Origin: Heterodontus francisci
Lineage: Eukaryota
Length of the DNA: 64,000 nt
NCBI RefSeq assembly: GCF_036365525.1
Contig: NC_090404.1
Coordinates: 13,358,550-13,422,549 of the forward strand
Direction: 5' to 3'
How positions within the stretch are numbered: position 1 is the stretch's first letter; each line of letters begins with the position of its first letter. Below, piece after piece: positions 28,961 through 64,000 of the stretch. Position numbers and translations under genes: made by a program. Under the pieces are notes generated by a model. It saw only the letters and a program-made list of their open reading frames with translations. It made no database searches and was not told the origin of the DNA.

Positions 28961-30397
28961 TTGTCTGACAGAACGGATGTTAGAATTTGCAGAAGTGACC
29001 AGAATCTGTATTTTTTTTTAATCTACGGACTATCGAGTGTTACAGAGACAGCCTGGAGACTCGGCTCCACAGGTGAACTCACCAAATTAACCCGAATGGC
29101 TCTAGGAGCGCAATAAGGCTTGAAACCACCGAGTTTCTGATAGGCATGTCCCAGAGCTGCCAGTGGGTGAAGCTATCTCCACGAATCTGGGCTCAGCAGT
29201 TAATGGGCGACTCTGTGTGTGACCTGTATAATCGTAGCAGAGATCATCTTTCCCAGATAGATGCTGCAGGGTCATTACTGCGCGTTGTCTGCCACCTGGT
29301 GGAATAAATCAGAATGTCCACCCCCAGCAATCTTTCCTTCACTCAGAGAACTTTTGTTTAGAAGTTCATTTTGTAAGACATTGAGAAGGAGACTACACCA
29401 AAACCAAATCGATTGTGATAATTAAACAATTAGTACAGGACAATGCCCAGTTAAGAGACGGCTCGTTAAGAATCTTAAACGCAAATAAGAAGTGCTGGAA
29501 ATTCTCAGCAGGTCTGGCAGCATCTGTGGAGAGAGAAGCAGAGTTAACGTTTCAGGTCAGTGACCCTTCAGAACTCAAACTCGTACCTTTCACGGTTTTC
29601 GAACTTCTTTGTGTTGTATATTTTAAACTCTTAGTCACACCTTGCTAACGTGATAACATTTCAATGTATTCAATTTATTATTAATTCATACAAAACCCTT
29701 TAGTTAAATTATACCAATCTCTTTAGTGAGTCTGCACACCCTTTTATGGTCTTTACACAGTGTCCTTTCCTGGGTTCTGGCCTCGCTATTGCAACCTTTC
29801 TGATACCCTTTCTATCTGCATTTTGGATTCAGACCATCTGGACTGGTACCTAGAACACACCACGCCTGTCCTTACAGATTATTAGTCCATTAATCATTGC
29901 TCATCACCTTCTAATGCTCTCCTGAAAACGACCTGATTATATTGCAGATTCTTAATCTTACTATGTGTAAGCGGCGTTGACATTGAGAAATGTTTAAGCA
30001 GGTTACTTTAGTTATTACGATCTTTCCCACCTGGCGTGTCTGTCTAGACTGTAGACTGATATTTTAAACCAATCATTAGTGGGTCATTTGCATCGAGTTA
30101 TATCGGAAGTAGCGGCGCACGAATATAACTATTTGCGGGCCAACTGCTGGAGTTTGTATTCTCAATGTGATTGCCGAGTTCCCAGGGACACACAAATAAA
30201 CAGCAGCCAATTCTGCCCTCACACAGTTAATGTGATAATCAGACTGAATCAGTGATCGATGTGAATGATTTTAGATGGTGTTTATGTGGATTGTGCTCGG
30301 GTTCTGCCCGCACAGGAATGTATTCACGTGTCAGTGTGTGATCCGCTGTTATAAACAGCCCTCAGCAGACAGCAGCTGTGACCCAGTAACCTGCGGC

Positions 30398-30436
30398 AGT
30401 TATTGTACGAGGCTTTAGCTCGTTCCCATCGCTGTG
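30398..30436 (-). other. 23-RSS (CACAGCG-23-ACAATAACT)
   Basis: Directly after YYCALSL. Confidence 0.9.
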
Positions 30437-31502
30437 AGACTCAGTGCACAGTAATAGACCGCGGTGTCAGACAGCCGCAGCTCCGAGATGGTCACTCGGT
30501 ACAACTTGTCTGAATGCTGGACTGTACCAGAAAACCGGTTCTGAGCGAAATCCGCCTTCATTTCAGCACTACCGCTTGTGTGCCTCCGGACTGCAAACTC
30601 GGGCTGTCTGCCTGGGTATTGGCGGTACCAGAATAAGTAATAAGCACGGTCGGGATAGGTGCAGGTTAAAGTGGCATCTTCTCCCTCTGTCAGTATGAGA
30701 GAGGACTCCCGCTGAGTAACAGAATCTCCATCGCTCAGATCTGGAACACACGGTTAAAGAAAGGGGAAATCACCGAATAAGACTTCAACTGAACCGAACT
30801 GACGGTCAAAATTCGCAGTCATTTTTTTTATAAATTTAAATAGGATTTAGAAAACATTCTGCTCAACTGGTCCATACCAGGGTTCCCACTCCCCACGAGC
30901 ATCCCCCACTCCTCTTCATCTCACTCTACCAGCATATCTTTCCATCCCTTTCTCCCTCATCTGTTTTTCAGTTTCCCTTTAAATGCATCTATGCTATTCA
31001 CCTCAACCCCTCCTTGTGGTAGCGAGTTCCACATTCTCACCACTCCCTGGTCAAAGATGTTTCTCCTGAATTCCCTATTGGATATTTGGTGACTTTTATG
31101 TTTGTGGCCCATAGACTTGGAATTCTCCAAGTGGAAACATTTTCTCTACGTCTACCCTCTCCAACTCCTTCACAATTTTAAAGATATCTATCAGGTTACC
31201 CTTCAGTTTTCTCTTTATTAGAGAAACGAACCAGTCTGTACAATAGTTTCTGCTAAATTATCTCTCAATTCTTGCAAATCGTTCTTGTACTTTCTCCTGT
31301 GTCTCTATACCTTGTCGCAATTTGGAGACCAGAACTGCTCACAAAAACCCAACTGTGGTCTAACCAAGTTCGATGCGAGTTTAACATGAACTCGCTGTTC
31401 TTCAAATTTATTCCTCTTAGAAATGAATCCCTTTCATAAAATTTGAAATTTCTTACCGACAATGAATGCCGCCCAGAGCACGGCGAGAAGGGAGAGCCGC
31501 AT
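30437..31502 (-). CDS. TRAV/TRDV: TCR alpha/delta V segment, apparently functional (not recovered by the ORF track)
   Basis: Leader 31457-31502 MRLSLLAVLWAAFIV (gtaag); V exon 30437-30740 DLSDGDSVTQRESSLILTEGEDATLTCTYPDRAYYLFWYRQYPGRQPEFAVRRHTSGSAEMKADFAQNRFSGTVQHSDKLYRVTISELRLSDTAVYYCALS; no stops. The 716-bp intron carries a CR1 fragment. Confidence 0.93.
30870..31400 (-). mobile_element. Degraded CR1 3' fragment within the V intron
   Basis: Same 3' ORF2/tail features as the other CR1 fragments. Confidence 0.7.
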
Positions 31503-31588
31503 TGCTGCTGCTCGGGAATGCGAGGGACTTTTTTGTGTGTCTCGGGAACCTGCAGAACATCGAACAGGAAGGACCTGTTGCTGGTCTT

Positions 31589-31675
31589 ACGTCACTTCCT
31601 GCAGGACATCAAATAGAAAAAGCTGAGAGGATTGGCTCCGCCTGGTCTGATGTCACTTCCTTAACCACAAGGAAG
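31589..31675 (-). promoter_or_regulatory. V-gene promoter: two ETS-CRE composites, CCAAT box, RUNX-ETS pair
   Basis: ACGTCACTTCCTG 31589-31601, ATTGG 31631-31635, TGATGTCACTTCCT 31648-31661, AACCACA-AGGAAG 31663-31675, upstream of the leader ATG. Confidence 0.65.
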
Positions 31676-32589
31676 TGTTTTTTTCTGGAGAACTGAGATA
31701 TTAACATCGAATTCTGCTAATCGGAGAGAAAGGTGAATAAAAATAGTCATCTGAATCTCAAATTGATCTGATGGAAAGTTTGCACTCTAATTACCCTGAG
31801 AGGCAGTTTGACCTGCAACTGCTCCGTGCAACAGTTTGATTTTTACTTGGCCTGAGGGAAATCGTCTCAAAGAGACAAGGACAGGGTGTTGAATGTAGAT
31901 GAAGATGTTCAGTTTATTTCACTCGCTGTCACTGGTTGACGGGGGTGGGTGGGAGAGGTAGGGGTTGTGGGCTGAGGGTTTCGTTCATATTCCGCTAGGG
32001 TCACACAAAAGAAGACTTGCTCTGGTCTCTGTAAATTAGTGACATCCCAATCTGAATGGGAAATGTCACCTGCTGGCTGCTTTCGTGGAATAGTTGCTTA
32101 TTATTTGAGAATGTGTTCACTATGTCTCCAGCTATAGCGACCAGATGAAATCTACCCGACCGAGTGGATTGTTCAGTGTAAACTCCCCAATGTTGCAGGA
32201 GAATGAAATTAATGCTGTCGGTGAGCCGTCACACAGCCAGAGTAGAATTCCAACCCTCAGTAAAGCTGGTCATTTCTGTGCTGGTTTAAGTAGCGTGAAA
32301 CAGAAAAATAATACATCGGCATTGAAGGGGAACCTGAACTGGAACACACACTATACACAGTCAGTTGGCCTATTAAACCTGCGCGGGTTTTTCCTGTTCA
32401 TCCCTCATTATAAAATGAGTGAAATCTAAAATCTGTATTCAGTGCTGTTGGGACCTGTCCTGCGGGAATATTCTATCCGAGTAGTATTTGTCCTATTCAG
32501 ACATTCACAGGGCGGGTAATCCGGACGCACATTGTTCTATTTACAGAGTTGGCTGCAGTTTTATTTTCTCTTGGACACAGAACTGTGCA

Positions 32590-32800
32590 GCTGTTGGTTT
32601 CAGAACACAGTAATACACGGCGCTGTCTGACTGATCCGCCCCACAAACTCTCAATTGAAACGTGCTCTCCTCTGTGTTCAGCTCGGCTGTAAAACGGTGC
32701 TTGGCGAAGTCGGCTGAGAACGTGCCTTATTTGGTGAGACTATTCCCCGATCCGGATGTGGAACCTGCCGGCAACAGAATAGATCAGCGACAGCTTCCTG
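32590..32800 (-). pseudogene. TRAV/TRDV: TCR V pseudogene (3' half)
   Basis: LFCCRQ (for WYRQ), frameshift, then SADFAKHRFTAELNTEESTFQLRVCGADQSDSAVYYCVLK; degenerate RSS. Confidence 0.8.
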
Positions 32801-33702
32801 CACAATCTCTTCTTTTCTCTCCTACTCTATTTGTTGCAATCACTTGATCAGTGAGCAGTAGCAGTTTATACAGAGACATCTAGAGATGGAACCATCGCCA
32901 TTTCCGCTCCATCAGCTCCCAGTGCAGCTGAGCGGCGCCGCGCACTTTCCGCCCTTACACAGAGTTTTCAATTCACTCCATTTGTTTCTGCGGTGTCCCC
33001 GCCCACAGTTTCCGTTTGCTCTCACTCTGACCCGCCTTGCCTGCCCTGTGTTACTGGAGAGATTGCTGCTGCTGTTCCCTGTTTGGAATTGGTCGGATCA
33101 GTAGTGCAGTGGGGCAGGGATCTGTATTTCTGCTCGGACAGAGCTCCCACACTGCGGAGTTACAGACTCAGGGAGCATCATGCGGAACCGTCTCACACCG
33201 CTCCTCATCATTATATCACTTCTCAGGAAATATTCTCAACTGGTACAGTCAGCAACCCCGGACTTCCGCCACAGTTTAGGACTTGAGTCTCACGGCGTCA
33301 TAGTTTAGAGGAGATTTCACTGTTCTGGAGGTTTTTCCTCTATGCTCTATTAAGTAGTTACTGAATGTAACCCCAACTTTCAGTTCATTTCCAGCCAACT
33401 GGAGCGCCAGGTTGAGACTCTCACACAGAATGAGAACTAGTTTTATATTTGTTTCACTAAGGTTGAAATTTAAGATGCCCGCGAAATGAACTGAGATTGG
33501 AAGAACAGTTCAATCAAACATCGTATTATGAAATCAACCTCAAGATTATTATATAAATAATAAACATTATTCCTGTGCTGGACTGTTAGTACAGCTGTTG
33601 ATTTGGCTGTTTTTTCACTAACACTCTCCTGTAATAAATACTGACACTTCTCTTTCCTCCCCATCTGCCCGCTGCTCCGTTCACCTTGTTACATTGAGGC
33701 AG

Positions 33703-33741
33703 TGTTTTTGTACGCGGCTCCCTCTGGTTCCTGTCACTGTG
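33703..33741 (-). other. 23-RSS (CACAGTG-23-ACAAAAACA)
   Basis: Consensus heptamer, near-consensus nonamer. Confidence 0.95.
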
Positions 33742-34244
33742 TCTCTCAGCCCGCAGTAATACATCGCGCTGTCAGACAGCCGCAGGTCGTGGATGGTGAA
33801 ATTCCCCTCACTTTTCGAAGTGTCGAGAGATGCAGAAAACCGATCCTCCACGCCCTTTGCTCTGAAAACATCTCCGTATTTAGGAATGTAGATGAGGAAT
33901 GTGGGGGCTTTACCCCGGTCCTGACGGTACAGTTGCAGGTAATAGGAAAGCTCAGCGGTCGAATAGCTGAAATTAATGGTCACCGAGTCTCCTTCAAACT
34001 GCATCGCTGCAACCGGCTCCTGTGAGACCGAGTCTGCACCACTGACACCTGCAGAAATTTAGAAATACAGAACTTCAAAGTTTTATTGTCACTTTATTAT
34101 AACTAATATCATCAGGTGACGGAACACATTGTAAATAGAGAGAAAGCCAATGATCCATGTAAGAGGAAGATTATGTGACTTGTAAACTTTACCCGTTAAG
34201 AGAGCTGCAGCTGTGAGGAACGAATACAAAGTAACAAGCGACAT
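33742..34244 (-). CDS. TRAV/TRDV: TCR alpha/delta V segment, open frame, lacking the first canonical Cys and the core Trp
   Basis: Leader 34193-34244 MSLVTLYSFLTAAALLT; V exon 33742-34048 GVSGADSVSQEPVAAMQFEGDSVTINFSYSTAELSYYLQLYRQ...DSAMYYCGLR. Confidence 0.88.
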
Positions 34245-36510: not shown

Positions 36511-36975
36511 CTGAGATCATTGAGACTGAGTTCACTCCATTTACCGGACCTGGAATAGGAAAAACTCGAACAGTACCGAGATCTCATCAAATCGGGTGCA
36601 ATTTCTCCGCCCCGCCCGCTTGTTTCTCTCTCAGCCGCCACTTCCGGGAGCTGGGGGATCATGATTTTCATCAAGTGATCAGAGAGCGCCATCCCGTGGA
36701 CGGTAGAAGCCTCACCCAGGAGCGCCATCCCGTGGACAGGAGAAGCCTCACCCAGAGCATGGGAAATGCGCACAGACACAGACAGGCACGGATAAACACA
36801 CAGGGACACACGCACGTATACAGACATATAAGCATAGTACATAAACATACAAGGCGGCGTTGAATTCTTTGAGATGAACTGCAAAAACTGTGAGAACGCA
36901 ATTTACCTCACATTGCCACTCGAGCCAGGGCACTCACGGTGTTTGTGTTTTCACATCAGCAGATTAATCACAAGG

Positions 36976-38242: not shown

Positions 38243-41200
38243 TGTTAGCGGGAATGAATCTAGAAGACTCACTCAACTCTCAGGACTGCTCCAATGTCAA
38301 ACAGTTTATTGAGTTACGCCAGCGGGGAGCAGGTCACTGGGCTGTCCAGATGCCTCTCCACCGAGCAAAGGAAAATCATCCATACTTATGCATTTTTCAA
38401 ACAGTTACTCAGCCCATCCTGGCTGGACATGATCCAATCATAACGGTTATTGATTACATACATTACACATATTACCAATTAGATTACTCAGTAGGCATCA
38501 TGTGGCTTCGTGATCAGCTCATAGCAAGCCCCCTGATCATCTTGTGATGTTTCCCAGACCCCATTATCAACTATCCTTGAGTCTTCACAATGAATCCTTC
38601 TACCTCTATCAAGCTTGCATTCCTGATTGCTTTGTGCAGTCTGCAGTTACACAAAGCAGCTGCCTTATACACTGATATGAGGGGCCCTGCTTGGTCAGGC
38701 TAATTGCCTGTGCTAAGCAGTACCATGCTCAAGGCTGCAAGCTAACTAACTTGTCCCACAATGCCTTGGGTAAATACCCCATTTTGTAACAATATGTGGC
38801 TACACTTTCATCTTATATATATATATATATATATGTATTTATTTAGCTGCATCGGCCACAATTTTTTCCCTCTACAATCCCCCCTTTCGGTAAAGGACGA
38901 CCCCTAGTCCTGTTAACCGACATACCTACTTTATTATCCCCGTTTTACCCCTGTCCGGTATTTCCTGCCTCTACGTGCTGGCCAGTCACGTGATTTCAGG
39001 AATCCCGGTCACTTAAATCAAATCAATATGACCCACATTATCGTATCCCTTTGAGGTTAACCTCCTGTGTTGTTCCTTTACCAAAGCCTTTGCTTTCTTT
39101 CGCTTAGTATATTGTCCGCATGATCTACAAGCCAATATTACCCCGGTGGGAGCCAGTACCAATTGCACTCCCACCAACACGTGTGATATTATCCTGATCC
39201 AAGGGTGAATATTGACGTTCATCCCCCAATACCAAACTCTTCCCCGCCAGCTTGTACTTTGAAGTCCCTGTTCAGTATTTTCCTTGAGAACCTTTAACTT
39301 TCTTTTTAACTGATGGTAAAGCTTCACTGAGTGACCTACTTTGTCCCGTAATCCGCTCAATTTCTCATCTAGGTGTGGGATTGGGGCTTGCTCTGACTCT
39401 TTATAATGCTGGAGGTGATCGTGGAGCTGATCAGTTGCATTAACGGTTTCCAGTCCCCGCTGTTGGATATAAACTATCCAGGCTAGTCCTATAGTGACTG
39501 GTTGTTGAGGGGTAAAACAGAAGTCTGGGTATGGTATGGGGCAGCGTCAACTTCCATAGCAGTATGATGTTTCGATGGTGGAAACGCAGTACTTTCCATT
39601 TCCCTGGTACCCCGACCTTGCAAAATCTCTGTCAGATAATATCAGAGGGAGGTATTGGCCTGTCGATCCAATCTGGTACCTCCCCCCTTTGGAACTGATC
39701 GAGGTTGTGTCTCATTTGTTCCACCATCCACAGCCCATAAGTGTGGCACAATTGCCCCTGCCGGGTACGGCATCCAAAGTGATTAATAGTCTTGGCATGG
39801 GCCTCCAGCACTGCTATTCCATCTAATTGTATTTCCATTGTTCTCTGCCCCAGACCTGTTTGATTGGGCCCCCTCAGCTTGAATTATGAGCTCCCTTATA
39901 ACCCTCCAGAGTCGTTCCGCATTCTCGTTTACCGCTTGTGTATGTAAAGAATTGATTAAAGAAGTCCCAATATTGATCTCTGTTACTTCATCATTTAATA
40001 CTTTTTCCTCTTGTATCTATGAAATGGGTTACGCCCCCTTATCCTTGTGGCCCCTGTGGCGTCAGCAGCTTGTCACAATATTACAGTGGCTAACATACTA
40101 TACATATTCTTAGCCTGTTCTGAACAATACTCTGGCATCCGGATACCTGAGACATTGATCAACACAGGCACAATTTCATGTTTTACATTATCATACGCTT
40201 CCCCTGGGCTCGATGTACCCACACACATCCATGTTCCTTTCAACTTTCCTTATCATTTGTTGCCCAATTGGAGGGGCACAAACAATTCAAAAGACACAGC
40301 TCTCAGTTACCCATTCCCCTTTCTGTCTGGTCACGCAGTTAGCACGGTCATCTGTGGAGCACCGTACACATACTGCATCTTTGCCCGGATTCACCATAAG
40401 CCATGCATTCAAGTAGGTTCAGTCCCTATTTTGATCTTTACTCGCCCTTATACACTTCCCATCCAACATGTTGTGCAATGCCCCATAGTTCATATAGTCC
40501 ATATTACTACTCCTTTCATTGATCTGTTGTGCATCCATTACCGGCTCTTTGTTCTTTCTCTCCGGATATTAGCACCAGGCCCCACAGCCACTGCAGTCCG
40601 GATCCTTCCCATTCTCCACTAGTGGTTATATCTGTAATTTAAACACACTGCCCTGGTGGTCACCAGGTGTCCATGTTGTGAGTATCCCCTGATGAGGGAT
40701 ACATGTCTACCTGTGGGGACCGAACATGTCCTGGGGAATCCAGGAGTTAATTTATATTCTTATCATCTCTACTCTTTCGAAATTATCTATATGGTCCCGA
40801 CGTGCTCGGGCTACACTCTCCACAATCCTTGCCCAGTTAGTAGCCCATCTAATAATAATCCAAATGCCTATCAATACTACCATTATTCCCAGCCCCCCGA
40901 GTAGTCCATTCTCAAGTGTATTCTTCCATTCCCGGTATCTCTTTGTGTACCAGGTGGTCTTTATTTCGGAGTCTATCATTTGCTGTTGTCTTTATAAACC
41001 TTCAGTTGGGACCAATGTTTCCATCGGCCCTTCCCTTTACCATTATTTTGTCTCCCACAACAGGCACATTTGTCTGTTCCTCTTTCATGTTTCTATAGAA
41101 CCTTCTGCCTCACCTTGTGCAGTTGTCTGCACAACTCCTTCAAAAATCTTTTAACCCTTTCTTTTGCGGGTCCTATTTCCTCACTACCTGCTACGACATC

Positions 41201-41913
41201 CCCTGGCAACCTCATTGCCCTTCCTGTCATTATTAAGGTGTTTAATTTATCCTGATTATTATAAAGTCATGTTCTCTATGTGAGTTGTTTCACTGCACTG
41301 GCTGCATTAACCATTTCATGCCATGCTGTTTCTCAAGTCAGTAAACATGTTTGAGACCCGTTCGTCAGGTGATCTTATCAGAAGATAGAAAATGGCCAGA
41401 CTTTCAAATGTAGCTCTCTTAAAAATTCATATCTCCAAGAGAAAACTATCAATTGCCAGTCTTATCTACACTTTCCTGACTTTCACTGGAAAATTCTAGA
41501 CTTCTTGGAAATTTCACACTATATTAATTTAGCTGTTTGAATTCTAATTTCACCATTTGTTTATCCCCAGAATTCCTTTATTAGCTCTTGCATCAGCCAG
41601 ATCTGATTGCCAATTCCTATTAATTATAATTCTATTTCATTTTGAGCCCTGGAGAACCTTTACAATCAATATTCGTAATTCCTTAAAACAGAAACCAAAC
41701 ATTTCCATTTGATTCCTGACATTACTATATATTGTTTTTTTTTTTACCTTAGATGACATTTTAGTTCCTTAAATAACTTGCCAAATTAAACCTGGATTTT
41801 CGACATCTCAGATTGTTCCAAATTCAAATAACAGTAAATTTCCCTGCGAATGCTTTAAATAACCACTCACATCAATTTAATTTTGTTTATCGATTCCAAT
41901 TTTTCCCTCTACA
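38243..41913 (-). mobile_element. Internally deleted LTR retroelement/ERV: stub of the 5' LTR, decayed env-like gene, PPT and complete 3' LTR (38243-38876)
   Basis: LTR bounded TG..CA with AATAAA on the minus strand (38305-38310); PPT aaagggggga at 38878-38887; the LTR terminus ttttccctctaca recurs at 41901-41913; 4-bp TSD gtgg (38239-38242 / 41914-41917); env fragments with heptad and TM segments (ORFs 39013..39360, 39632..39838). Confidence 0.8.
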
Positions 41914-42780: not shown

Positions 42781-43732
42781 CTCGTAAAGATAATAACCAC
42801 AGCACAGAGACAAATTTAAAGTAGTTGCATTAAATTCTCACATTATATAGGATAGGCGTGAACCATGAGTCACGTTTACATCCGCTGTATGTGGCACGGT
42901 GATTAATGTTCTCTGTGGTTTCATCTTTAAAGCAAACAATATTACACTGTTATGCCTGGATATTAAAAATAAAGAAAGGCAATCATCAGGATTTAAGACA
43001 GCATTAACGCCACGTATATGTTGAACTGCATTAAATTGTATTAACATATTAATGATAAGAACATGGATAATGCGACATAATCATGCAACATCCTCCTGTA
43101 ATTTGAGAATCCGGGGATTTCCCAGGCTGAGGGCCATTTACTTCACCTCGCCACCAGAGGGCGTACTCTCATAGCGCGTTTGCGTGTTCATTGCAGTAGA
43201 TCACAAGGCACTGGGGAATGAGCAAGGGCGTTCCTTCCCACCTTTGAGTGACTTCGGTAAGACCAGCATTTATTGCTCATCCCTAATTACCCTGCGACAG
43301 GTGGTGGTGAATCGCCTTCTTGAACCGCTGCAGTCCATGTGGTGTAGGTGCACCCACAGTGCTATGAGAGAGGGAGTGTCTGCATCAGTTCACAGAGCGT
43401 GTTACAGTTCCGATTCAAGAAATGACAAATATAGCCACCAGAGGGCGCAATAGTGAGACTAACTCGTCAGTATTGGATTGTTCCCGCGCCCTCAAGTGAG
43501 TATGAGGTTGACCTTCAGAAAATAATACCATCAATTGCACATCAGAATCATCCGAAGTTAAATCGGTTTCCAGTAATATTCCCGATGCACCGAGAGCAGA
43601 AACCAGGAAAACACAACTAATGAAATTGCAACTTTCTTTTTTATATTTTAGACGAGTGTTTTGTGCAGAAAAGTGTTCACCGTTAAAGCATTTTGTTAAT
43701 TTCTCAATTCCCTGTCTCTTTTGCATCGACAG

Positions 43733-44021
43733 TTATCAGCGGAGAGGCTATGATCCACCAATCACAGCAGATGTTTATACAAGAGGGACAATTGATTGAA
43801 ATCCAGTGCAGTGCGACAACCAGCAACACCGAAAGTATCCACGGGTACAGAGAACGACAGAACCATGGCTCCAAATTCATCCCATCTGCTATCAACGGCA
43901 ACACCATTGACAGGCGGTTCAGACTTTTTATTGACTCAATAAGAAGTTATAACATTCTCGGTGTTGACAGCACCGCGATATCAGACACTGGAGTGTATTA
44001 CTGTGCAGTGAGACAAAAACT
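43733..44021 (+). pseudogene. TRAV/TRDV: TCR V pseudogene; RSS heptamer and spacer deleted
   Basis: ISGEAMIHQ..IEIQCS..SIHGYRE (Trp to Gly)..DTGVYYCAVR, followed immediately by the nonamer ACAAAAACT (44013-44021); no clear leader. Confidence 0.85.
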
Positions 44022-44581: not shown

Positions 44582-45015
44582 ATGTATTACTCGGTTCCAG
44601 TGAATCTATTGCCTGTGATTCTGTCTCTGCTAACATGTAGGTACAGGATCTGAACTGAATAATCCACTGTGTTTTTTTTTTATTCACGTTGCTTCGGAAT
44701 TTCATGATCTGAGTGTTGTTTTCAGGTCGATGTCTCTCGGACCGAGTGTTCCAGTCTCCAACTGCAAGAACAGTCCAGAGTGGGGATTCGGTGACGATAA
44801 ACTGCAGCTATGACATGTCCAGCATTTACGCCATGCATTGGTACAAACAGAAATCCGGTCACGGACTGGACTGGGTAATAAAGCGACTATCGAGTGGAAA
44901 AGAGAAAAAGGATCGATTTGAACTGGATCTTTCCACTGCGGACAAACGCGGCCAATTTGTCATTGAAAGCACGGAGAGCGCGGATACGGCGGTGTATTAC
45001 TGTGCGATAGAGCCG
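44582..45015 (+). CDS. TRAV/TRDV: TCR alpha/delta V segment, apparently functional
   Basis: Leader 44582-44636 MYYSVPVNLLPVILSLLT; V exon 44726-45015 ..DRVFQSPTARTVQSGDSVTINCSY..AMHWYKQ..DTAVYYCAIEP. Confidence 0.93.
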
Positions 45016-45054
45016 CACACTGAGAGGAAACGCGGCATTCACTGTACAAAAACC
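45016..45054 (+). other. 23-RSS (CACACTG-23-ACAAAAACC)
   Basis: Consensus nonamer, exact 23-nt spacer. Confidence 0.95.
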
Positions 45055-52985: not shown

Positions 52986-54584
52986 AGACCGCGGGTGTCC
53001 TTTTGAGAGAGAGAATCCCTGAGCAGATTGGAGACGGAATCCAGAAAAGCACAGGAGGTGGAGACCGCTCATTAACCAAAGACGGAGTGAACCAAAGAAA
53101 TGGAAAGAAGAAACTCGACCCCGTGGAAACGGGCGGACAATAAGTTTAACCCCCTGAGTGATAAATCACGATGAAGAAAATAAATTTTTATAATAGAAAG
53201 GGGGAGACTTTTATTCTGCAGCGTCTTTCAAGGCCTCGGGACGTCCAAAAGCGTCTTATAGGCAAGGAAATACTTTTCCGGTGTAGTCGCTGTTGCAATG
53301 CAGGAAATATTATTTGCAAGGAGGGAGGTGAGAATATTTAATTCTCTGACAGAAGTTTTTGTCAATCTGACTCTTGTGGATGTGAAGGGATTTGGAAGTC
53401 CAAATAATTCCAATTTGTCATCAATAGTAAAACAATATCCGGTCACAAACAATCGATACAATTGTCTGTCTATGACAAAACAATGACGTTGGATGAAAAA
53501 ACATTGATTACAACGCTTCACTGTCTCAGTCAACCGTGCCGTGACACCTGTAATTTACTCTCGCTGTAAATACACCGCCATGTGCGGTGTTACCACACAG
53601 AAGTATTTCCTGTAATCTCCAGCTGTCACCTGTGAAACCACGAAACTGACGACTCTGCAACTTTTAGCCAATGAGGAGGGGCTGGAGCGCCATCCAGTGG
53701 CGTCAGGCGGTAATGGAATCCTGTCTGACGCATTTGGATTCTCAATTTATCAGCGAAACTGCTGCCTGATCATATTGAACTATTATTATATTAGAGTACT
53801 GCAATTGTCATTGTTTTATTTTTATTATTATTGTAACTGCTGTCATTTTGTTGTTTTGCTCTTCCTGCCGTTGCTATTTTATATTAATTCTGAGGTTTCT
53901 TGTCTCAGTTTTCTGGTATGCCCAAGTCACTAACCTATTACATGCTCATTTGCATAGAGTAGAAGGACTTCACGGTATTAATTCTTCACTTCATCTGACT
54001 GGATTTATAATTTGGTAAGAATAGAAGCCTTTTGACCTCCCGAATTATCAAATGCGGAGATCAAGCAATATTCAGTAACTGCATGACGTGAAGATGATTA
54101 ATGTTTTGCTATTGAGGTTTAATCTGTATGTTGAATCAAACACTATATATATATATGTATATATATAATGTAAATCAATTTCATTGCATATCAAACAATG
54201 CCAGTCGGGAACATCAGGGTTAGGGCTAGGACTCGAGAAGACGGTAAAGCTCCCTGTGCACTGCCCAATGTCACACTCCCAGAGCAGGTACAGCACGGGG
54301 TTAGATACAGAGCAAAGCTCTCTCTGCACAGTCCCAACAAGCACTCCCAGGGCAGGTACAGCAGGTGATAATACACAGAGAGGTTCTGCCTGGATCGGGC
54401 CCGATGAGGCATGAAATGGTGAAAACAATAAAGGTAATTCCAAGTACACAGTAAGTATTATTTCATTATGTTAAAATAATGCCTCTGATAATGTCGTTAC
54501 GCATTTTAATTACCTGCTTTTACTTGTATCACACACGCCCTGGAACCCGTAAACCGGTCCTCTCCTCAGTTCCCGTGCCGACTG

Positions 54585-54623
54585 AGTTATTGTACAGCTT
54601 CCTCATCACTCTGCTTCACCGTG
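54585..54623 (-). other. 23-RSS (CACGGTG-23-ACAATAACT)
   Basis: Directly after YYSAVR. Confidence 0.88.
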
Positions 54624-54932
54624 TCTCACTGCACTGTAATACACCGCAGCGTCTGACAGCCCAGCCGTGTTAATGGTGAGCGTGGTGGAGCCTTTCTCAC
54701 TGTCCACAGATATTTTAAACCTTCCCTCAACTCTCTCATCTCTGTATGTGGAGAGGAGATACTGGGGAGCTTGATCGGAGAACTGCCGGTACCAGAATAT
54801 AGAATCAGCTGTAGTGAAAGTAGCGTTGTGATGAAGTGAAATATTTTCTCCTTCGGTCCCTTGATGCACCGATATTTTGAATGTCTCCGAGTGACAAGGA
54901 ACAGCTGTCAAAGCAAGAACAATAATTAACAT
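54624..54932 (-). CDS. TRAV/TRDV: TCR V segment, open frame but both canonical Cys replaced; no separate leader exon found (ORF or pseudogene)
   Basis: ENISLHHNATFTTADSIFWYRQFSDQAPQYLL..GRFKISVD..LSDAAVYYSAVR; acceptor tgacag at 54905; in-frame ATG at 54932 gives MLIIVLALTAVPCHS. Confidence 0.75.
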
Positions 54933-55376: not shown

Positions 55377-55415
55377 AGATATTGTGCAGCTGGATCCGCT
55401 CTTTGCCTCACTGTG
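55377..55415 (-). other. 23-RSS (CACAGTG-23-ACAATATCT)
   Basis: Directly after YYCASG. Confidence 0.9.
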
Positions 55416-55843
55416 TCCCACTGGCACAGTAATACAGTCCGGCGTCCAGGGCCGTGGTGTCATCTATAGAGATGGTGTTGGACTTCTTTACTCGGTCCAA
55501 GGACAGTGTGTAGCGTCCAGTAGTCTCAGTCCCCTGGTATATGGAGCCGATAAATGTCGGGGCCCCGGTCAGTGTTTGTCTGTACCAGGCTACGGTATCC
55601 CCAGTAGCAATGGAGAGCCGGCAGTCCAGTTCAGCCCGTTCACCTTCCCGAGACACCACCTGCTCAGGGTCTGAGCTCTGATCCTCACACCGAACGGCTG
55701 TGAACAAAACAAAATCACTCAACAACCGCGAGATATTAAGAGTTTGATGAAACAAGGTGTCTGATCAGATAAATAAACTCACACAACATCAAAAGCACCA
55801 GAACTCCAACTGGAAGCAGGTTTTTGTGGAGGTTTCTGTTCAT
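55416..55843 (-). CDS. TRAV/TRDV: TCR V segment, apparently functional
   Basis: Leader 55783-55843 MNRNLHKNLLPVGVLVLLML (gtgagt); V exon 55416-55697 ..REGERAELDC..VAWYRQ..DAGLYYCASG. Confidence 0.92.
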
Positions 55844-57504
55844 GATGGTGAAGATGGACAAAAGGTGGATCAATCAGGGTCTGATTTCCAGACTAGGACT
55901 TGCTGCCGAGTCCCAGGCTCTCAATGGTGAGGAGGGGGAGGCGAGGGGAGAGCTTTACATTCTCCTCGTACAGTGTGAGACTGATGGGCGACATTCACCA
56001 ATCGGACAATAGGGGATGTCGTCACCTGACGTTATTCACTGTGACTCTCAGTGATTGGCTGTTTCTCAAACCTTAGACCTCTTGAACCGTCGCTGGGAGG
56101 GAATTTATCTTGTCGCTGTATAAAGCAACAGGGAAATTTGATTTCTGTCGTCTTTCTACTTCAAAAAGTCATTCTTAGCCTTGGAATCATAAACACTGAC
56201 ATCACAGAGGCCATTCGGCCACCACTCTGTTGCTGCCTCTGTGAAAGAGCTGTCCACATAAACCCAATTCATCTGCCTGTTCCCTACATCTTATACATTT
56301 CAAAAAAAAAAATCACTTTTCAAACTGTTATTCACTTGGCTGTTAAACGTGCCCACCAGTGTTTCCATCCTATTTCTCGTTGGTTCATCTCATTCCTTAA
56401 CAATGCCGCGCTGAAAAATGCAACAATTTACTAAACTCTCCCTCCGTTTAATTCGTGGTGATCTGAAATGTCGCCCTCAAGTGATCCACTGAACAAGCAG
56501 TCATCCAGTTTGTTTTTCACCTTTTCCTCAACTTTCCTAATTATGAGCCCTGTCTGTCACAGCATTTCCGCTCTGGTGAAAACATCCTCAGTTCCTCAAG
56601 TCTCCGCTCAGAAATCTCGACTCTCACCACCCCCCCCCCCCCCCCCCCCCCCCGCTTCATATTTTGTCCATGAATTGTAACATCTTTCTAAAGAAGGGAC
56701 CAGAACCTGGATTAAATATTCCAACTGCAGCCTCACCAATGATGTGCAGATTTACCATCGTTTCTGTGCGTTTTAAAATCTGTGCTCCTCTATCAATTTT
56801 AGATTATTTAACCCCGTCACAGCAGCCCCACGTTCCCCACGTTTTGTCTCTGAACCCCGAATTCTCTGCTCCTCCTTTCCTCATTTAAATTAATATTTTC
56901 TTATTCGTTATTTGCCTGCTTTACATTTACTATAATGTCGGTATGGTTTATATGGTTTCATTGCGTGAGACAATCAGAAACCACAAGTTTTGATTATAAT
57001 TTTCGAACCACTACCTCTGTTCTACTTTTGACATTGATTGTCCTTTTTGGCCCTGTGTCTTAGATGAATCTTCCTAATGGGGCAGGCGCGCCACCTGGTG
57101 GCGATTTGAGGTAAATTTTGCCTGTCGAATTTGTCAAACTTGGCATTCAGTCCTGACTTATTTGTAGTGATTTGTTTATTAATTTTACTATGAAGAGAAT
57201 GTTTACCACCGAAAAAAATCAGCCTAACACGCATGTAAATATTGTGGCAACTTACACTATAATTTATTTGATTTGACGTGATACAAATTAAAAATGAATA
57301 AAATGTTTTCAAATTAGTTCCAGGAATATCGGAATCAATGTCAAGACCGGTGCTTATTAAACATCCCTATTTTTTTTCTCACGACGCTCTGGAACTGTAT
57401 AGTGAGTTTTTAATGGTACCATCAGATTGGACGTGTCCCAGGCAACTCACGGCTGCCGGGTAGCCTCAGCCCCACTGGGATTCGTACAAGTGCGTCCTGT
57501 TTGA

Positions 57505-58760: not shown

Positions 58761-59012
58761 TGAAGACACAGAGGAAGACAGCAGGAGAAAGAGAAACTGT
58801 CTGAGGCAGTAATTGGGCTGTAAGTTACGCTGATTGGAGCCCAACTGTCATCAGTTCTGAGCGACCAGCCAATCCTGCCCCTGGGAAACGCCCCTGAGTT
58901 TCTCAATACGTCAAATCTCTCCCTGATCTGAGTTTCCCCTTTCATATCAGACTTGAACTGTTAACATATTTGAAACATTCTGTTGTTTCTGCGGAACTCT
59001 GAAGCAGACACC

Positions 59013-59447
59013 ATGTGCTCGCTATGTTCCTTACTGATAATATTTGTCGTGCTGCTTGGTGAGTCTATGTTTAAATGGTCAGTGTCTGATCCATGGGTTA
59101 TATCCACTCAGAGATATTTGATACATTATGTATTTTGTTACAGGAACCAGTGGAGAAGATTCAGTATCCCAGGATCCGCCTGAACTAACGGTTTTGGAAG
59201 GACAGACCATAATACTGAACTGTGGTTACTCTACAGCTGGTATTCCAACACTGTTCTGGTACATCCAGTATCCCGGGGAATCTCTGAGATATTTGATGAA
59301 GATATATAGCTCGGGGAAGGGAAATCCGTCTCCAGATTTCCCAGGCAGATTCTCTGCTGTTTTGCAGAAAGGAAACAACACGGTTCCTTTAAATATCGCC
59401 GGGGTTCTTCTCTCCGACACGGCAGTATATTTCTGTGCCATGAACCC
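59013..59447 (+). CDS. TRAV/TRDV: TCR alpha/delta V segment, apparently functional
   Basis: Leader 59013-59058 MCSLCSLLIIFVVLL (gtgagt); V exon 59144-59447 GTSGEDSVSQDPPELTVLEGQTIILNC..LFWYIQYPG..DTAVYFCAMN. Confidence 0.94.
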
Positions 59448-59487
59448 CACACTGCTGCAGAGATATAGCAGGTCCCGGACAAAAACC
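59448..59487 (+). other. RSS with 24-nt spacer (CACACTG-24-ACAAAAACC)
   Basis: Counted spacer 59455-59478. Confidence 0.85.
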
Positions 59488-60148
59488 CACACTGAGATTT
59501 CCAGTTAGAGCTCAGCAGAGGGCGCTCTCACACCGATAAACAGTAGCAATAAGTCAGCCTCCACCGTGAGAGTCACAGGGATCGACTTAAAATATAACGA
59601 AACTCACAACGCTCAACAGGAATAGGCGAGGACCACTTGCGAATTCACAATAATTGATTTCATCTGAACCATAACTAAACTTCACAAATTCTTTTGCGGC
59701 GTGTTAACTCACTTTTTGTCTTTCGATGTCCTTTCCTCCCCGGTCTGAATTATTGTGCAACCCTTTCCCCATCTCCGCTGTCAGTTTCTCTATCCCTTTG
59801 ATCAGAGCATGTTGTTAGTTCACAGACAGTTAGTGCAAAATTAACACATTTCACAAGGTAGTGAATTCACTCTTTAGAACAAGGAACCGGGCGCATATTT
59901 CCATCGATGACCATCGTCCTTTCGAATACCATTTGAATGTTTTAATGTTTTCTGACACCATTCCGCCTGACAATAACCAGGCCAAGTTTTGAATCCCAAA
60001 CACTCTCCAAATGTGTAACAATTTCTCCTACAAGGACACTGCCTGCAGCCCAGTTCCATTCACTGGCATCCAGCTTACCACATGGCGATCTTACAGCACC
60101 ACTGGGGACACAAGGAAGTGAGGTGAGAGAATCCTATGTTTTTGACAG

Positions 60149-60372
60149 GAACGAGTGGCGCAGATTCAGTGTCTCAGGTGACAGTCTGAGGGAACGGTTC
60201 CACAAGAACAGACCATAATAAAAGCTGAGTATTTCCAGCACTTCCTGTTTTTAGAACAGGCCGCAATGTCCAGCTAAAGTTACCCCACATCTGATAGTTT
60301 ACTCCGCCCACCTTTATTTGTTCGCCACTATTTCGGGTAATCCCCGAGATATTTACTGAGGCAATACAACTC
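60149..60372 (+). pseudogene. TRAV/TRDV: TCR V remnant (5' half), same family as the 35 and 59 kb V genes
   Basis: Acceptor tttgacag then GTSGADSVSQ; later YFG*SPRYLLRQY; small repeat insertion at about 60220-60252; no 3' half or RSS. Confidence 0.7.
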
Positions 60373-60799
60373 CTTGATACAGAAACCTGACAGTCTTTGT
60401 TCTCCGTGAGCCTTGGTATTCGAGCCTTCTCGATTAGTATTGACTTGTGAGGAAGTATCCATTCTCCAACTGTTTACTGGTTACCAAATGTTATTGCTTC
60501 TGTTTATCGGTTTGAAAGCGCCCTATGCCGAGCACGAACTGGACTCTTAGTGTTAGGACAGGAGTATCAGGATTATTATATTATTCAATAATAAACGAAA
60601 TCTTCCTCAGTGAAGTCGGTTTAAACCAGGGTTGAATCTATGGGTTGCAGGAGCTCTGAATTATGGTACAGAGAAGTTGCAAAAGTTCATATCTGTAAAC
60701 TAAAGACTGGATGAAGGAAATGTATACAATTATGGGTGAAAAGTGGAAACAAGTTGGCAGGGAAAGGCATCAAAAGGCAAAAGGGGAGTTAAAAGGGAA

Positions 60800-61200
60800 A
60801 CGGTGGCCTTGTGCAGTGTCACAGGGCTGGTAATTCAGCAGTCCACTCAGTCTAATGTCCTGGGGGCATGCGTTCAAATCCCGCCATGGTAGCTGGTGAA
60901 ATTTAAAATCAATGAATTAATAAAATAGGGCATTGAAAGCTAGTCTCAATAATGGCGCCATGGAACTATGATTGATTGTTGTAACAGCTCATCTGGTTCG
61001 TTAATGTCCTTTAAGGAAGGACATCTGCTGCCCTTACCTGGTCTGCCCTACGTCTGAGTCCAGAACCACAGCAATGTGGTTGACTCTTGACTGCCCTGTG
61101 AAATGGCTTAACAAGCCACTTAGTTGTCAAAGGCAATTAGGGATGGGCCGCAAATGCTGGCCTTGTCAGTGACGCCCACATCCCATGAAACAATATAAAA
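60800..61200 (+). mobile_element. tRNA-derived SINE whose 3' tail is shared with the LINE at 51.2-53.0 kb
   Basis: gttcaaatccc B-box-like motif; tail caattaggg.tggg...ccttgtcag.gac.c.cacatcccatgaaa matches 52916-52972. Confidence 0.75.
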
Positions 61201-61419
61201 GGCATCATAGATCGATTTGTAAAGGTCATTTTATTTTCATTGTAAGTTGCAAACACAAACTGATATAAGTGTGCAAGTAGACGTCGCCTGTTGCTTCGGA
61301 GTGCTTTTTCTTCCCTATGTAAGAATCCCTGTGACTCTCACAGGGTGAGGCTGAATTATCTCTTCTGTTGATCGGTGTTTGAGCGCCCTCTGGTGAGCAC
61401 TAACTGGAATTCTCATGTT

Positions 61420-61748
61420 TTTTTTGGGTCCAGGATCCACTTTCTCTCTGGTGGGCTAGATAGCACAGAAATGCACGGCGCTGTCGGACATCAGGCTGTT
61501 CCCGATCATTAGCTCGTTAATCTTGGTTGTTTTATTAAATGCAGAAGTAAACCTATCAGTGATGTCGGTGTTCTTTACCACATTCCCTCCAATAAGACAA
61601 AGAATGTAGTGTGGAATCTGCCCGGGGTTCTGACTGTACCAGTACACATAGGATTAGAAGCGCTTGTTTTCAAGCTGCAGGTCAGTGTGACGTCACTTTC
61701 CTCTTCAGCAGTTATTTCAGCAACCGACTCTGTCCTGGTGGCTCCATT
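61420..61748 (-). pseudogene. TRAV/TRDV: TCR V pseudogene
   Basis: ITAEEESDVTLTCSL, frameshift in CDR1, YWYSQNPGQIPHYIL..DRFTSAF..SDSAVHFCAI*; degenerate, shortened RSS. Confidence 0.85.
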
Positions 61749-62299
61749 CTAACATAAAAAAGTAACGGCACCAATCAGCATCAGCATCATCTTGATCAAC
61801 ACAACCGTCATCACCACCATCACTATTGTTTTACCAGTAATAACATCCGGGTTACAGCAGTCTGGGGGAGAATGGATTTTTACTGGGGAGGAATTTACTG
61901 ACTGAGAAGTGATAGAATGATGAGAAGCGCTGAGAGGCGGTTCCCCATGATACTTCCTGAATCCGTAACTCTGCGGTGCAGGAAATTCTCTGTCAGATCA
62001 GAAATGCAGATCCCAGTCCCACTGCACTGCTGATCCAACCAATGACAAGAATTGACCAGCGGCAGCTATCTCTCCAATAACACAATCGGGTCAGAGCGAG
62101 AGCAGCAAACGGAAGCTGTGGGCGGAGATACCGCAAGGCTCAAAACTGAGCGAAGGGTGCGGCGACACTCAGCTGCACTCGGAACTGATGGAGCGGAAAT
62201 AGCGACAGTTGAACCTCCGGAAGTCTGTGTTCATCCCTGCACCTGCTCACTGTGGAAGGGACGTTAAGGAACTCGAACGGAACGGAATGAGGCCATGCG

Positions 62300-62830
62300 G
62301 CCTATCTTACATGTACTACTTTGAAAGAGTTCTCCAATTCATCGTTCACTCTGCTCATTTTCCACAAAGCCCGGCATTATATTTCCTTTTCAAGTTATAT
62401 TCAATTCCCTTTTGAAAGTTACTGTTCTTCTGCCACCCTTTTAGACAGTTTTCCAGATTTTAACAATTCGCAGTGCAATAAACACATCTAATCTTTCCTT
62501 GCCTTTCGTTAATCAATTCTCTTAAATCCGGATGCCTGGGTTATCGAATTTTCTGCTAGTGGAAACAGTTACATGTGATCTACTCTATCAAATCCACTTA
62601 TATATTTGAAAATATCAATTAAGTCTCTCCTTAAACTTCTTTGACACAAGGAGAACAATCCCAGTTTCTCCAATCTGTTCGCCTAAAAGTCCCTCATCCC
62701 TGCTACCAATCTGGTGTATCTGTGCCGCACTTTCTCCAATGTCTTGACATTCTTTCTCATTAGCAGTGTCGACAATTGGATACAGAGCTCTAACTGATGT
62801 TTAAACAATGTTTTATAAAGGTTTTGTATC
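62300..62830 (-). mobile_element. Degraded CR1 3' fragment
   Basis: aaggagaacaatcccag..ccctcatccctg.. pattern as in the other CR1 copies. Confidence 0.6.
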
Positions 62831-62875
62831 ACATTCTGGCATAAACATCAGCAAAAGCAAAGTCTGGGTATACTA

Positions 62876-63815
62876 TAAATAAAAGCAAAATACTGCAGAT
62901 GCTGGAAATCCGAAATAAAACCAAAAAAAAGAATACTCAGCAGGTCCGGCAGCCTCCGTGGAGAGAGAAGCAAAGCTAACGTTTCAGGTCAGTGACCTTT
63001 CATCAGAACTGGCAAAGGTTAGAAATGTAACAGGTTTTAAGCAAATAAAGTGGGGGTGGGGCAAAAGAGAACAAATGGGAAGGTATTGATAGGACAGAGG
63101 GTGACAGAGAATAACTAACAAGGAGGTCGTGGGGCGAAGACATTGAGTGTGTTAATGGTGTTTTGAAAGACAAAGTGTTAGTGCAGAGAGGGTGTTAAAT
63201 GACAGAATAATGAAAGCCCTAGCCACAAGCAAAAACAGGAAAAAAATGAAAAAAAAAACAGTGGGTAGGCACATGGTAAAAAAAAGTGTAATGATGAAAC
63301 AAACTAAAATAAAATGAAATGCAAATAAATAATACAAAGTAAAACTAAAAAAAGGGAGCGTCAGTAATGCTCTGAAATTATTGAACTCAATGTTCAGTCC
63401 AGCAGACTGTAGTGTGCCTAATCGGTAAATGAGATTCTATTCCTCGAGCTTGCGTTGATGTTCACTGGAACACTGCAGCAATCCCAGGACAGAGATGTGA
63501 GCATGACAGCAGGGAGGGAGCGGGGTGTGGGGGCGGGGGTGGGCGGGGGGGGGGGGGGGGGGTGGTTGTGGTGGGTGGGGGGGGGGGGGGTGTTGAAATG
63601 GTAAGCGACAGGAATCTCGGGGTCATGTTTTCAGACTGAGCGGAGGTGTTCGGCAAAGCGGAAACCCAATCTGCATTTGATCCCTCCAGTGTCGAGGAGA
63701 CCACATTGTGAGCAGCGAATACAGTATACAAAATTGAAAGAAGTACGAGTAAATCGCAGCTTCACATGAAAGGAGTGTTTGGGGCCTTGGATAGTGGGCA
63801 GGTATTACACCTCCT
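62876..63815 (-). mobile_element. Penelope-like element, 3' part
   Basis: Reverse complement of 36976-37735 (GIY-YIG C-terminus and terminal region). Confidence 0.85.
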
Positions 63816-64000
63816 GCTGGGTTAAATTAGCTCCAATTTGCTAATTAGCTCTTGGAGACACAGCCTGACATTCTTGTATTCATATGTAAATCAGGATACC
63901 CGAAATCCACTCAATGGCCCCAATCTAAACTAGATGAAACAGGAAGCGCCGGCAGAGGGCGCCAAGTTCAAACATGGTAATTACAAACTCACGTGATGCC

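What the first reader, a model, noticed from the sequence alone, without database searches (positions are those of the whole stretch)
29289..63962. CTCF motifs across the V array whose strand tracks the strand of the neighbouring V gene
Seen: perfect matches to the CTCF core CCASYAGRKGGCRS at 29289-29302(-), 43435-43448(+) and 57088-57101(-); 13/14 matches at 43151(+), 53687(-), 59512(+), 61383(-), 63949(+); weaker ones at 32063(-), 36686(-) and 36722(-). With uniform base composition only about 0.03 perfect hits are expected in 64 kb on both strands. Minus motifs flank minus-strand V genes (30.4, 32.6, 36.3, 54.6, 55.4, 61.5 kb) and plus motifs flank plus-strand V genes (43.7/44.6, 59.0 kb); the partner of 63949 is outside the window. 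Known: oriented CTCF sites steer cohesin loop extrusion and RAG access in mammalian Igh and Tcra/d loci. Inference: V+CTCF is the unit of duplication here, and a loop-extrusion architecture may date to the earliest jawed vertebrates, operating on an array of mixed orientation.
Basis: partly seen in the sequence, partly recalled or inferred. Interest (0 to 1): 0.8.

Follow-up and report, generated by a model that had tools for sequence, protein, structure and literature searches.

The report
CTCF sites riding shark TCR genes
In this shark's very large T-cell receptor gene array, DNA-folding (CTCF) motifs sit at fixed spots beside particular V gene families and flip with them, so they point both ways, which resembles mammalian antibody loci in parts but argues against one-way scanning of the locus.

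Summary
All eight motifs with at most one mismatch are at the stated coordinates (shuffles give 0.61). The window lies near the distal end of an elasmobranch TCR alpha/delta V array of about 10.5 Mb. Around 218 sampled V ends, perfect motifs reach 64 per Mb against 1.42 per Mb genome-wide. They reduce to 21 homology classes at family-specific positions, and carry an excess of the published CTCF upstream module. One class lies 24 bases past the RSS nonamer on the V strand (window 59512, 61383), like mouse RSS-associated VH sites. Strand tracking is mostly inheritance: 93 of 116 sites, but 14 against 4 classes; one family is consistently opposite, and 118 of 218 V ends have no site. V genes (103 +, 115 -) and sites (44 of 122 face J) are mixed, and an inverted V appears spliced and rearranged. 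This rules out the Igh layout and fits Igk-like multi-loop folding with diffusion. An RSS-plus-motif module was swapped between V families, and a locus-unique motif-bearing tandem repeat 3' of C-alpha faces the array. Binding, function and ancient origin are untested.

The parts
29289..29302 (-). Perfect CTCF core, class 3, 1134 bases 3' of the heptamer of the V at 30.4 kb, same strand
   Evidence: 9 of 15 V of this subfamily have a same-strand site 500-1450 bases downstream
30398..30726 (-). Intact TCR V exon with 23-RSS (heptamer starts 30436)
32063..32076 (-). Two-mismatch motif 511 bases 3' of a V pseudogene; weak, seen at a like position in 2 of 10 family members
36686..36735 (-). Two two-mismatch motifs in a local 36-base duplication upstream of a V pseudogene; probably chance
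43151..43164 (+). One-mismatch CTCF core, class 6, upstream of the plus-strand V pair
   Evidence: lies outside the dispersed repeat between it and 43435
43435..43448 (+). Perfect CTCF core, class 7, upstream of the plus-strand V pair
43740..44015 (+). V exon with open frame but no recognisable RSS
44740..45054 (+). Intact inverted V exon with 23-RSS (45016-45054)
53687..53700 (-). One-mismatch CTCF core, class 14, 923 bases 3' of the V pseudogene at 54.6 kb
54585..54900 (-). V pseudogene (second Cys lost) with 23-RSS
55377..55689 (-). Divergent intact V exon with 23-RSS
57088..57101 (-). Perfect, near-palindromic CTCF core, 1.7 kb upstream of the heptamer of the V at 55.4 kb
59013..59447 (+). 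Intact inverted TCR V gene: leader exon 59013-59058, V exon 59144-59447 (subfamily 1a, chimeric 3' end)
59448..59487 (+). RSS with a 24-base spacer, typical of the clade that carries the adjacent motif
59493..59502 (+). Partial CTCF upstream module (5 of 10 to the published consensus) at the 6-base-linker position
59512..59525 (+). RSS-adjacent CTCF core (class 0), 24 bases past the nonamer, same strand as the V
61383..61396 (-). RSS-adjacent CTCF core (class 0), homologue of 59512, behind a decayed RSS
61454..61720 (-). V pseudogene of family 2
63949..63962 (+). One-mismatch CTCF core (class 1), about 690 bases upstream of the heptamer of a plus-strand family-5 V pseudogene just outside the window
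   Evidence: 16 of 16 family-5 V ends have it

Best explanation
These are CTCF binding elements tied to particular V families of a 10.5-Mb elasmobranch TCR alpha/delta V array (shown as sequence; binding inferred, about 0.85). About 21 ancestral sites, RSS-adjacent, upstream of the leader, or 0.5-1.5 kb downstream, were multiplied and inverted with their V cassettes, so site strand follows cassette strand (shown). Because V genes and sites face both ways relative to the single D-J-C end (shown), the likeliest working is Igk-like: the sites stall cohesin from both directions, fold the array into many internal loops, hold V RSSs at loop bases and let RAG capture them by short-range diffusion, by deletion or inversion (inferred). 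The tandem motif array 3' of C-alpha may be the anchor at the J end (inferred, weak).
For: 64 perfect sites per Mb near V ends against 1.42 genome-wide, reversed pattern 0; 0 perfect in 40 kb of V-free array and 0 perfect in 20 stretches around other V loci; upstream module 4.58 of 10 against 3.22 +/- 0.23, maximum 4.0 at 185 other offsets, over 20 classes; RSS-adjacent sites 34 same strand against 1 opposite; V ends 103 + and 115 -; sites facing J 44 of 122, 8 of 17, 20 of 70; one C-alpha on the contig; a unique inverted V 8 Mb from J is spliced and leaves the germline 6 bases before its heptamer. Igk mechanism: PMC10121685 passages, PMC11153149 and PMC12820099 abstracts. CTCF orientation code in skate: PMC10115646 passages.
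Against: No occupancy or contact data. 118 of 218 V ends, including a 21-member intact family with near-perfect RSSs, have no site. Conservation of the core is not a sharp peak: the RSS-to-core linker is as conserved as the core, and in families 5 and 8 the core sits within generally conserved promoter DNA. No Cer/Sis-like or INT-like site facing V was found in the fetched 3.343-3.39 Mb; most of 3.39-3.54 Mb was not fetched. Unlike Igk, site and V strands are correlated here. The tandem array's commonest unit has 2 mismatches and no upstream module. The RNA evidence is one sample, flagged as a guess, with junction letters not shown.
Confidence: 0.5

Rival explanations
1. The sites bind CTCF but act locally: they position nucleosomes or open the RSS, and insulate neighbouring head-to-head V promoters, with little part in long-range folding.
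For: Fixed family-specific distances; sites between divergent family-2 and family-5 promoters; the upstream module is linked to insulation (PMC12885311, passages); PMC6746451 (passages) suggests looping-independent roles for RSS-associated and upstream VH sites; no orientation bias towards J.
Against: Bound, cohesin-stalling sites at this density would be expected to shape folding anyway (inference); some V genes sit between convergent site pairs (class 2); a 10-Mb array needs some contraction mechanism (inference).
Confidence: 0.25
2. Neutral hitchhiking: a few ordinary CTCF motifs happened to lie in ancestral V cassettes and were amplified; they have no role in V(D)J recombination.
For: 122 sites collapse to 21 classes; one class accounts for 36; sites persist beside pseudogenes; footprints are not sharp; class-level strand bias is modest (p = 0.03).
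Against: 21 unrelated classes in about 0.67 Mb still far exceed background; the upstream module is enriched outside the searched pattern; the RSS class keeps the core at 0.88 identity while DNA beyond +106 falls to 0.41-0.65, and toggles C/G at the degenerate fourth position (20 and 13).
Confidence: 0.15
3. Igh-like linear RAG scanning: oriented sites steer extrusion from the J end and only J-facing V genes are used, at least until an inversion flips the array.
For: RSS-adjacent sites on the V strand as in mouse proximal VH; a reverse-facing motif array 3' of the C gene as for the Igh 3'CBE; any deletional V with a same-strand site has a J-facing site.
Against: Half of the intact V genes with good RSS are inverted (70 of 148) with similar RSS quality; 26 of 34 RSS-adjacent sites face away from J (22 of 30 without four tandem copies); an inverted V looks rearranged; in mouse Igh inverted VH genes are not used (PMC7930373, passages).
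Confidence: 0.1

Closest known systems
RSS-associated CTCF sites of mouse and human proximal VH genes (PMC6746451; VH81X-CBE)
   Same: Core at a fixed short distance 3' of the nonamer, on the V strand, confined to particular V clades; upstream and intergenic classes also present.
   Different: On TCR V families, not on the IgHV-like segments; 24 bases to the CCA-equivalent (22 in the paper's counting, against 17-19); follows a 24-base RSS spacer; spread over 3.84-13.89 Mb rather than D-proximal; faces both ways; the linker sequence is conserved here.
Mouse Tcra/Tcrd locus CBEs (PMC5859386, PMC4995090)
   Same: Same locus type; many sites upstream of V promoters.
   Different: 129 of 144 mouse sites face J-C against 44 of 122 here; mouse locus 1.8 Mb against about 10.5 Mb; no convincing V-facing TEA-type or INT-type site found in what was fetched.
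Mouse Igk locus (PMC10121685, PMC11153149, PMC12820099)
   Same: About half of V genes and sites are inverted; inversional joining is used; best mechanistic analogue.
   Different: In Igk site and V orientation are uncorrelated and sites mostly intergenic (PMC5859386); here they are V-linked; no Cer/Sis equivalent identified.
Mouse Igh 3'CBE super-anchor (10 sites)
   Same: Cluster of same-strand motifs 3' of the last C gene, facing the V region.
   Different: Here a 17.2-kb, 42-base minisatellite of about 409 units, 38 with one mismatch, most with two or more, no upstream module; binding unknown.
Teleost TRA/TRD loci with inverted V genes (PMC8559430)
   Same: Inversional V-alpha joining outside mammals is known; orientation did not affect usage in salmon.
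   Different: There V genes lie in large uniform blocks beyond C; CTCF is not mentioned in that paper (0 occurrences).

Membership tests
CTCF binding element | Core consensus match above background | tested here: met
   consensus as printed in PMC6746451
CTCF binding element | Upstream ZF9-11 module at the right spacing (optional feature) | tested here: met
   4.58 against 3.22 +/- 0.23 over 20 classes, mirror position 3.24; consensus and spacing from PMC12885311; some classes score at background
CTCF binding element | Core conserved above flanks among paralogues | tested here: inconclusive
   clear against distal flank for the RSS class, not a distinct peak in three other families
CTCF binding element | CTCF and cohesin occupancy in thymocytes | not testable with these tools
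   no ChIP run among the 4 listed
RSS-associated VH-type CBE | Fixed short distance 3' of nonamer, V strand | tested here: met
   34 same strand, 1 opposite, of 218 V ends; offsets mostly +62 to +64 from the heptamer
RSS-associated VH-type CBE | Attached to IgH VH genes | tested here: not met
   0 of 18 IgHV-like and TAILV-like ends have a site within 1.5 kb; true IgH clusters were not sampled
RSS-associated VH-type CBE | Confined to the D-proximal domain (mouse) | tested here: not met
   3.84 to 13.89 Mb
RSS-associated VH-type CBE | Needed for use of its V | not testable with these tools
   needs editing or repertoire data
Igh-type scanning locus | All V genes in deletional orientation | tested here: not met
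   103 + and 115 -; J and C on minus
Igh-type scanning locus | All V-region CBEs face the 3' end | tested here: not met
   44 of 122; 8 of 17; 20 of 70
Igh-type scanning locus | Reverse CBE cluster 3' of C | tested here: inconclusive
   unique tandem array, 38 one-mismatch units on the plus strand; 163 of 20000 shuffled units reach <=2 mismatches
Igk-type diffusion locus | V genes and CBEs in both orientations | tested here: met
Igk-type diffusion locus | Inverted V genes are rearranged | tested here: inconclusive
   one clear case, 2 runs of one sample, junction letters not shown
Igk-type diffusion locus | Cer/Sis-like V-facing CBE platform between V and J | tested here: inconclusive
   none in 3.343-3.39 Mb; 3.39-3.54 Mb mostly unfetched
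Igk-type diffusion locus | No correlation of CBE and V orientation | tested here: not met
   93 of 116 sites, 14 against 4 classes
Igk-type diffusion locus | Strong RSSs | tested here: inconclusive
   103 of 162 intact V ends within 1 mismatch of consensus; not a functional measure
Mouse Tcra/d CBE layout | CBEs upstream of V promoters | tested here: met
   family 5: 16 of 16; family 8: 7 of 7, opposite strand
Mouse Tcra/d CBE layout | V-facing CBE just upstream of the J-alpha array (TEA) | tested here: not met
   two one-mismatch sites 1.1 and 4.2 kb upstream face J and score under 13 bits; only a 13.3-bit V-facing hit 15 kb upstream

The most novel reading that the evidence does not exclude
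The shark TCR alpha/delta array is flip-proof: because most sites share the strand of their V, every inversional V-J join that turns over megabases of the array converts away-facing V-plus-site units into J-facing ones, so successive rounds over 93 J-alpha segments draw on both halves of a 10-Mb array, anchored by a minisatellite of hundreds of CTCF-like units 3' of C-alpha. The RSS-plus-site module is a portable unit that V families exchange, and RSS-adjacent CTCF control is either ancestral to jawed vertebrates or arose twice.
Probability: 0.2. Interest if true: 0.85.

Novelty: new variant of a known kind. Interest (0 to 1): 0.62.

Why it matters
CTCF control of V(D)J recombination has been worked out in mouse and human. 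If these sites are bound, a cartilaginous fish uses the same site classes, including the RSS-adjacent one, in a locus several times larger and with V genes facing both ways. That gives a natural test of whether scanning or diffusion is the older way to reach distant V genes, and it gives internal controls: sister subfamilies with and without the site, and the same V-plus-site unit in both orientations.

Tried and rejected
Pfam PF09291 did not find C-alpha; J 12-RSS patterns did. A search for longer homologues gave one shark protein, P0001, no V-J-C chain. Transposon origin was tested only for 43151/43435: the dispersed repeat lies between the motifs, not on them; class 0 is array-confined (70 of 93 genome hits). 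The other window sites were not searched genome-wide. A common satellite as source of the 3' array was rejected (34 of 34 and 115 of 115 hits in the one array). The two motifs upstream of J-alpha were considered as TEA-type sites and set aside (wrong direction, low score). The run search listed no holder on record as RNA; the RSS-site V in the laid stretch had only low-depth cover, which says nothing on its use. No JASPAR matrix was on hand; I used the IUPAC consensus and a matrix built from the sites themselves, which is circular for the core. An ad hoc upstream pattern was chosen after seeing the data and was replaced by the published consensus. Three look-ups of earlier findings returned nothing.
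Full report
Observation. Every motif listed is at its coordinate and strand. Eight matches with at most one mismatch stand against 0.61 in shuffles. The genome holds 8552 perfect matches in 6013 Mb, 1.42 per Mb, so the fair expectation for the window is 0.09, not 0.03; three is still about 33-fold.

Setting. The window is G000:C34:13358550-13422549. V-domain hits run from about 3.37 to 13.9 Mb on this contig. At the low end, all on the minus strand, lie a D, 19 J-delta, C-delta, 93 J-alpha and C-alpha. There is one C-alpha on the contig and an identical copy on contig C1869. The array mixes TCR V families with IgHV-like and TAILV-like segments (labels from recall of shark sequences; PMC12227049, passages, describes VH genes and TAILV at the shark locus), and the one outside relative found is a shark protein. 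It is an elasmobranch TCR alpha/delta locus. Minus-strand V genes join by deletion, plus-strand ones by inversion, and the window is about 10.1 Mb from J-alpha.

Sample. I planned 141 V-centred array regions from two capped searches, fetched 121 of them as 120 stretches and dropped 20 that looked like near-duplicates. Seven stretches were widened to take in hits, so density was computed only within 1.5 kb of V ends; strand counts over all 122 sites include the widened parts. In all about 0.67 of 10.5 Mb was read, giving 218 V 3' ends, 162 intact.

Enrichment. In 513,734 V-anchored bases there are 33 perfect and 100 near-perfect sites, 64 perfect per Mb, with 0 for the reversed pattern. Ten V-free array stretches (40 kb) gave 0 perfect and 2 one-mismatch hits; 20 stretches around other V genes (Ig-cluster-like and orphan V) gave 0 perfect and 5 one-mismatch hits in 3 stretches, all 1 kb or more from the V end. 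Unbiased genome scans agree: 17 of the 100 listed (111 total) hits of one tight pattern fall in the array, 0.19 expected, and 70 of 93 hits of another.

Independence and identity. Flank homology collapses 122 sites to 21 classes. Over the 20 classes with full flanks, the published upstream consensus of CTCF fingers 9-11 (PMC12885311, passages) matches 4.58 of 10 at its expected place, against 3.22 +/- 0.23 at 185 other offsets (maximum 4.0) and 3.24 at the mirror position. This lies outside the searched pattern and is the best sequence evidence for real CTCF sites. Footprints are mixed: the RSS-class core keeps 0.88 identity against 0.41-0.65 beyond +106, but the linker is as conserved, and three other families show no distinct peak.

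Position is family-specific. Thirty-four V ends have a same-strand site 50-90 bases from the heptamer (up to 2 mismatches), one has an opposite one; window sites 59512 and 61383 belong here, 24 bases past the nonamer. Mouse RSS-associated VH sites lie 17-19 bases past the nonamer, 22 here in that counting (PMC6746451, passages). Family 5 has a same-strand site about 700 bases upstream in 16 of 16, family 8 an opposite-strand one at about -800 in 7 of 7 with enough flank (of 9), and one subfamily a downstream site in 9 of 15. Family 3 (0 of 21) and the IgHV-like and TAILV-like group (0 of 18) have none; 100 of 218 V ends have any site within 1.5 kb.

Strand. Of 116 sites with a V within 2 kb, 93 share its strand; by class 14 same, 4 opposite, 2 tied (p = 0.03). 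Some opposite calls stem from unannotated broken V genes or shared head-to-head promoters. The bias is real but modest, and most of the raw count is inheritance through tandem single-V units (16 copies, 2.56-kb period), large units (10 copies, 70-80 kb) and multi-V cassettes.

A swapped module. The window's 59.1-kb V (subfamily 1a) is 73% identical in coding DNA to subfamily 1b, which lacks the site, and 52% to family 2; past the coding end it is 80-84% identical to family 2 and 37-51% to 1b. The switch lies 30-50 bases before the heptamer; the coding tree joins 1a with 1b and the module tree joins 1a with 2, each at 100/100 (26 rows, five near-identical family-2 copies left out). The RSS-plus-site module thus moved between families; the direction is not shown. 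It carries a 24-base spacer in 26 of 34, against 2 of 153 other RSSs.

Orientation to J. Taking the motif to point towards its 3' end (convention recalled from Rao 2014), 44 of 122 sites face J, 8 of 17 and 20 of 70 in the unbiased scans. V ends are 103 plus and 115 minus, with like RSS quality. In mouse, all VH sites and 129 of 144 Tcra/d sites face J, while Igk is mixed with no site-to-V correlation (PMC5859386, section 20 and passages). Inverted VH genes are not used in Igh (PMC7930373, passages). In four runs of one sample, flagged RNA by guess, a plus-strand V at C34:11.24 Mb shows a leader-to-V splice and a contig with 0 differences over 252 bases that leaves the germline 6 bases before the heptamer with 76 letters unlaid; a second run leaves at the same place. 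The copy is unique, next 91%. The junction letters were not shown, so J is inferred.

The 3' end. Sixteen kb past the C-alpha stop lies a 17.2-kb array of about 409 units of 42 bases; 38 units hold a one-mismatch motif, all facing J and V, 7 hold one on the other strand, and the commonest unit has two mismatches. It occurs nowhere else in the genome. It recalls the Igh 3'CBE, but 0.8% of shuffled units do as well, the region has a dozen or so other minisatellites, and the upstream module is absent. It is a lead. No convincing TEA-, INT- or Cer-type site was found in the fetched 300 kb.

Mechanism. Shown: enrichment, family-specific placement, co-duplication, mixed orientation, module swap. Inferred: binding, cohesin stalling, and Igk-like folding into internal loops with diffusional capture (PMC10121685, passages; PMC11153149 and PMC12820099, abstracts). 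Skate TAD borders show the CTCF orientation code (PMC10115646, passages), so the machinery exists in this lineage. Local accessibility or insulation, neutral carriage and Igh-like scanning are the rivals.

Novelty. Searches for CTCF with shark TCR and RSS, with cartilaginous fish and loop extrusion, with elasmobranch, RSS and inversional, and for shark CTCF ChIP-seq listed no title on CTCF sites in a shark antigen receptor locus; PMC12227049 and PMC8559430 have 0 occurrences of CTCF. The library lacks most subscription papers, among them the nurse shark locus descriptions (one search found one paper), and no supplements were read. Also seen: PMC4995090, PMC10484683 and 10.1101/2020.01.01.891473 as passages; PMC13190342 as listing only. 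The site classes are known; their arrangement here is a new variant. Ancient origin is untested.

Noticed in passing
G000:C34:3150441-3167655 (L150-L151): Locus-unique 42-base tandem repeat, about 409 units, 16 kb 3' of C-alpha, with CTCF-like cores facing the J and V arrays; possible super-anchor.
   Followed up: partly
window 59448-59487 and relatives: A whole V clade uses a 24-base RSS spacer (26 of 34 against 2 of 153 elsewhere), with a CACACTG heptamer and a second heptamer-like word right after the nonamer.
   Followed up: partly
window 59144-59580: Chimeric V: family-1 coding DNA joined 30-50 bases before the heptamer to the family-2 RSS-plus-site module.
   Followed up: yes
G000:C34:3.19-13.9 Mb: TCR alpha/delta locus of about 10.7 Mb with 93 J-alpha and 19 J-delta segments, several times the size of mammalian antigen receptor loci.
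   Followed up: partly
window 44740-45054 and G000:C34:13677985: Two V copies 99.7% identical in opposite orientations 275 kb apart: a recent inverted duplication.
   Followed up: no
L059, L064, L068, L101: Homologous class-2 sites flank some minus-strand V genes as convergent pairs, as if left by inversion with duplication.
   Followed up: no
window 3176-4137 and 9449-12097: C2H2 zinc-finger arrays inside the V array, the second with tandemly repeated fingers and in-frame stops.
   Followed up: partly
window 19131-25597: 6.4-kb pyrimidine-rich tandem satellite with extreme strand skew.
   Followed up: no
window 39013-41255: Open frames that look retroelement-like by eye; the one scanned had no Pfam match. 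Observed only.
   Followed up: partly
   Followed up: no
   Followed up: partly
L172-L175 (C34:27.3, 28.4, 32.2, 33.25 Mb): TCR-type V exons far outside the array, with odd or absent heptamers.
   Followed up: no
G000:C1869:26757-27041: Identical C-alpha exon on a separate contig, probably an assembly duplicate; the tandem repeat patterns did not hit that contig.
   Followed up: no
G000:C1 listing: The genome-wide perfect matches are dominated by one word (CCACTAGGTGGCGC type), suggesting a repeat-borne CTCF motif family.
   Followed up: no
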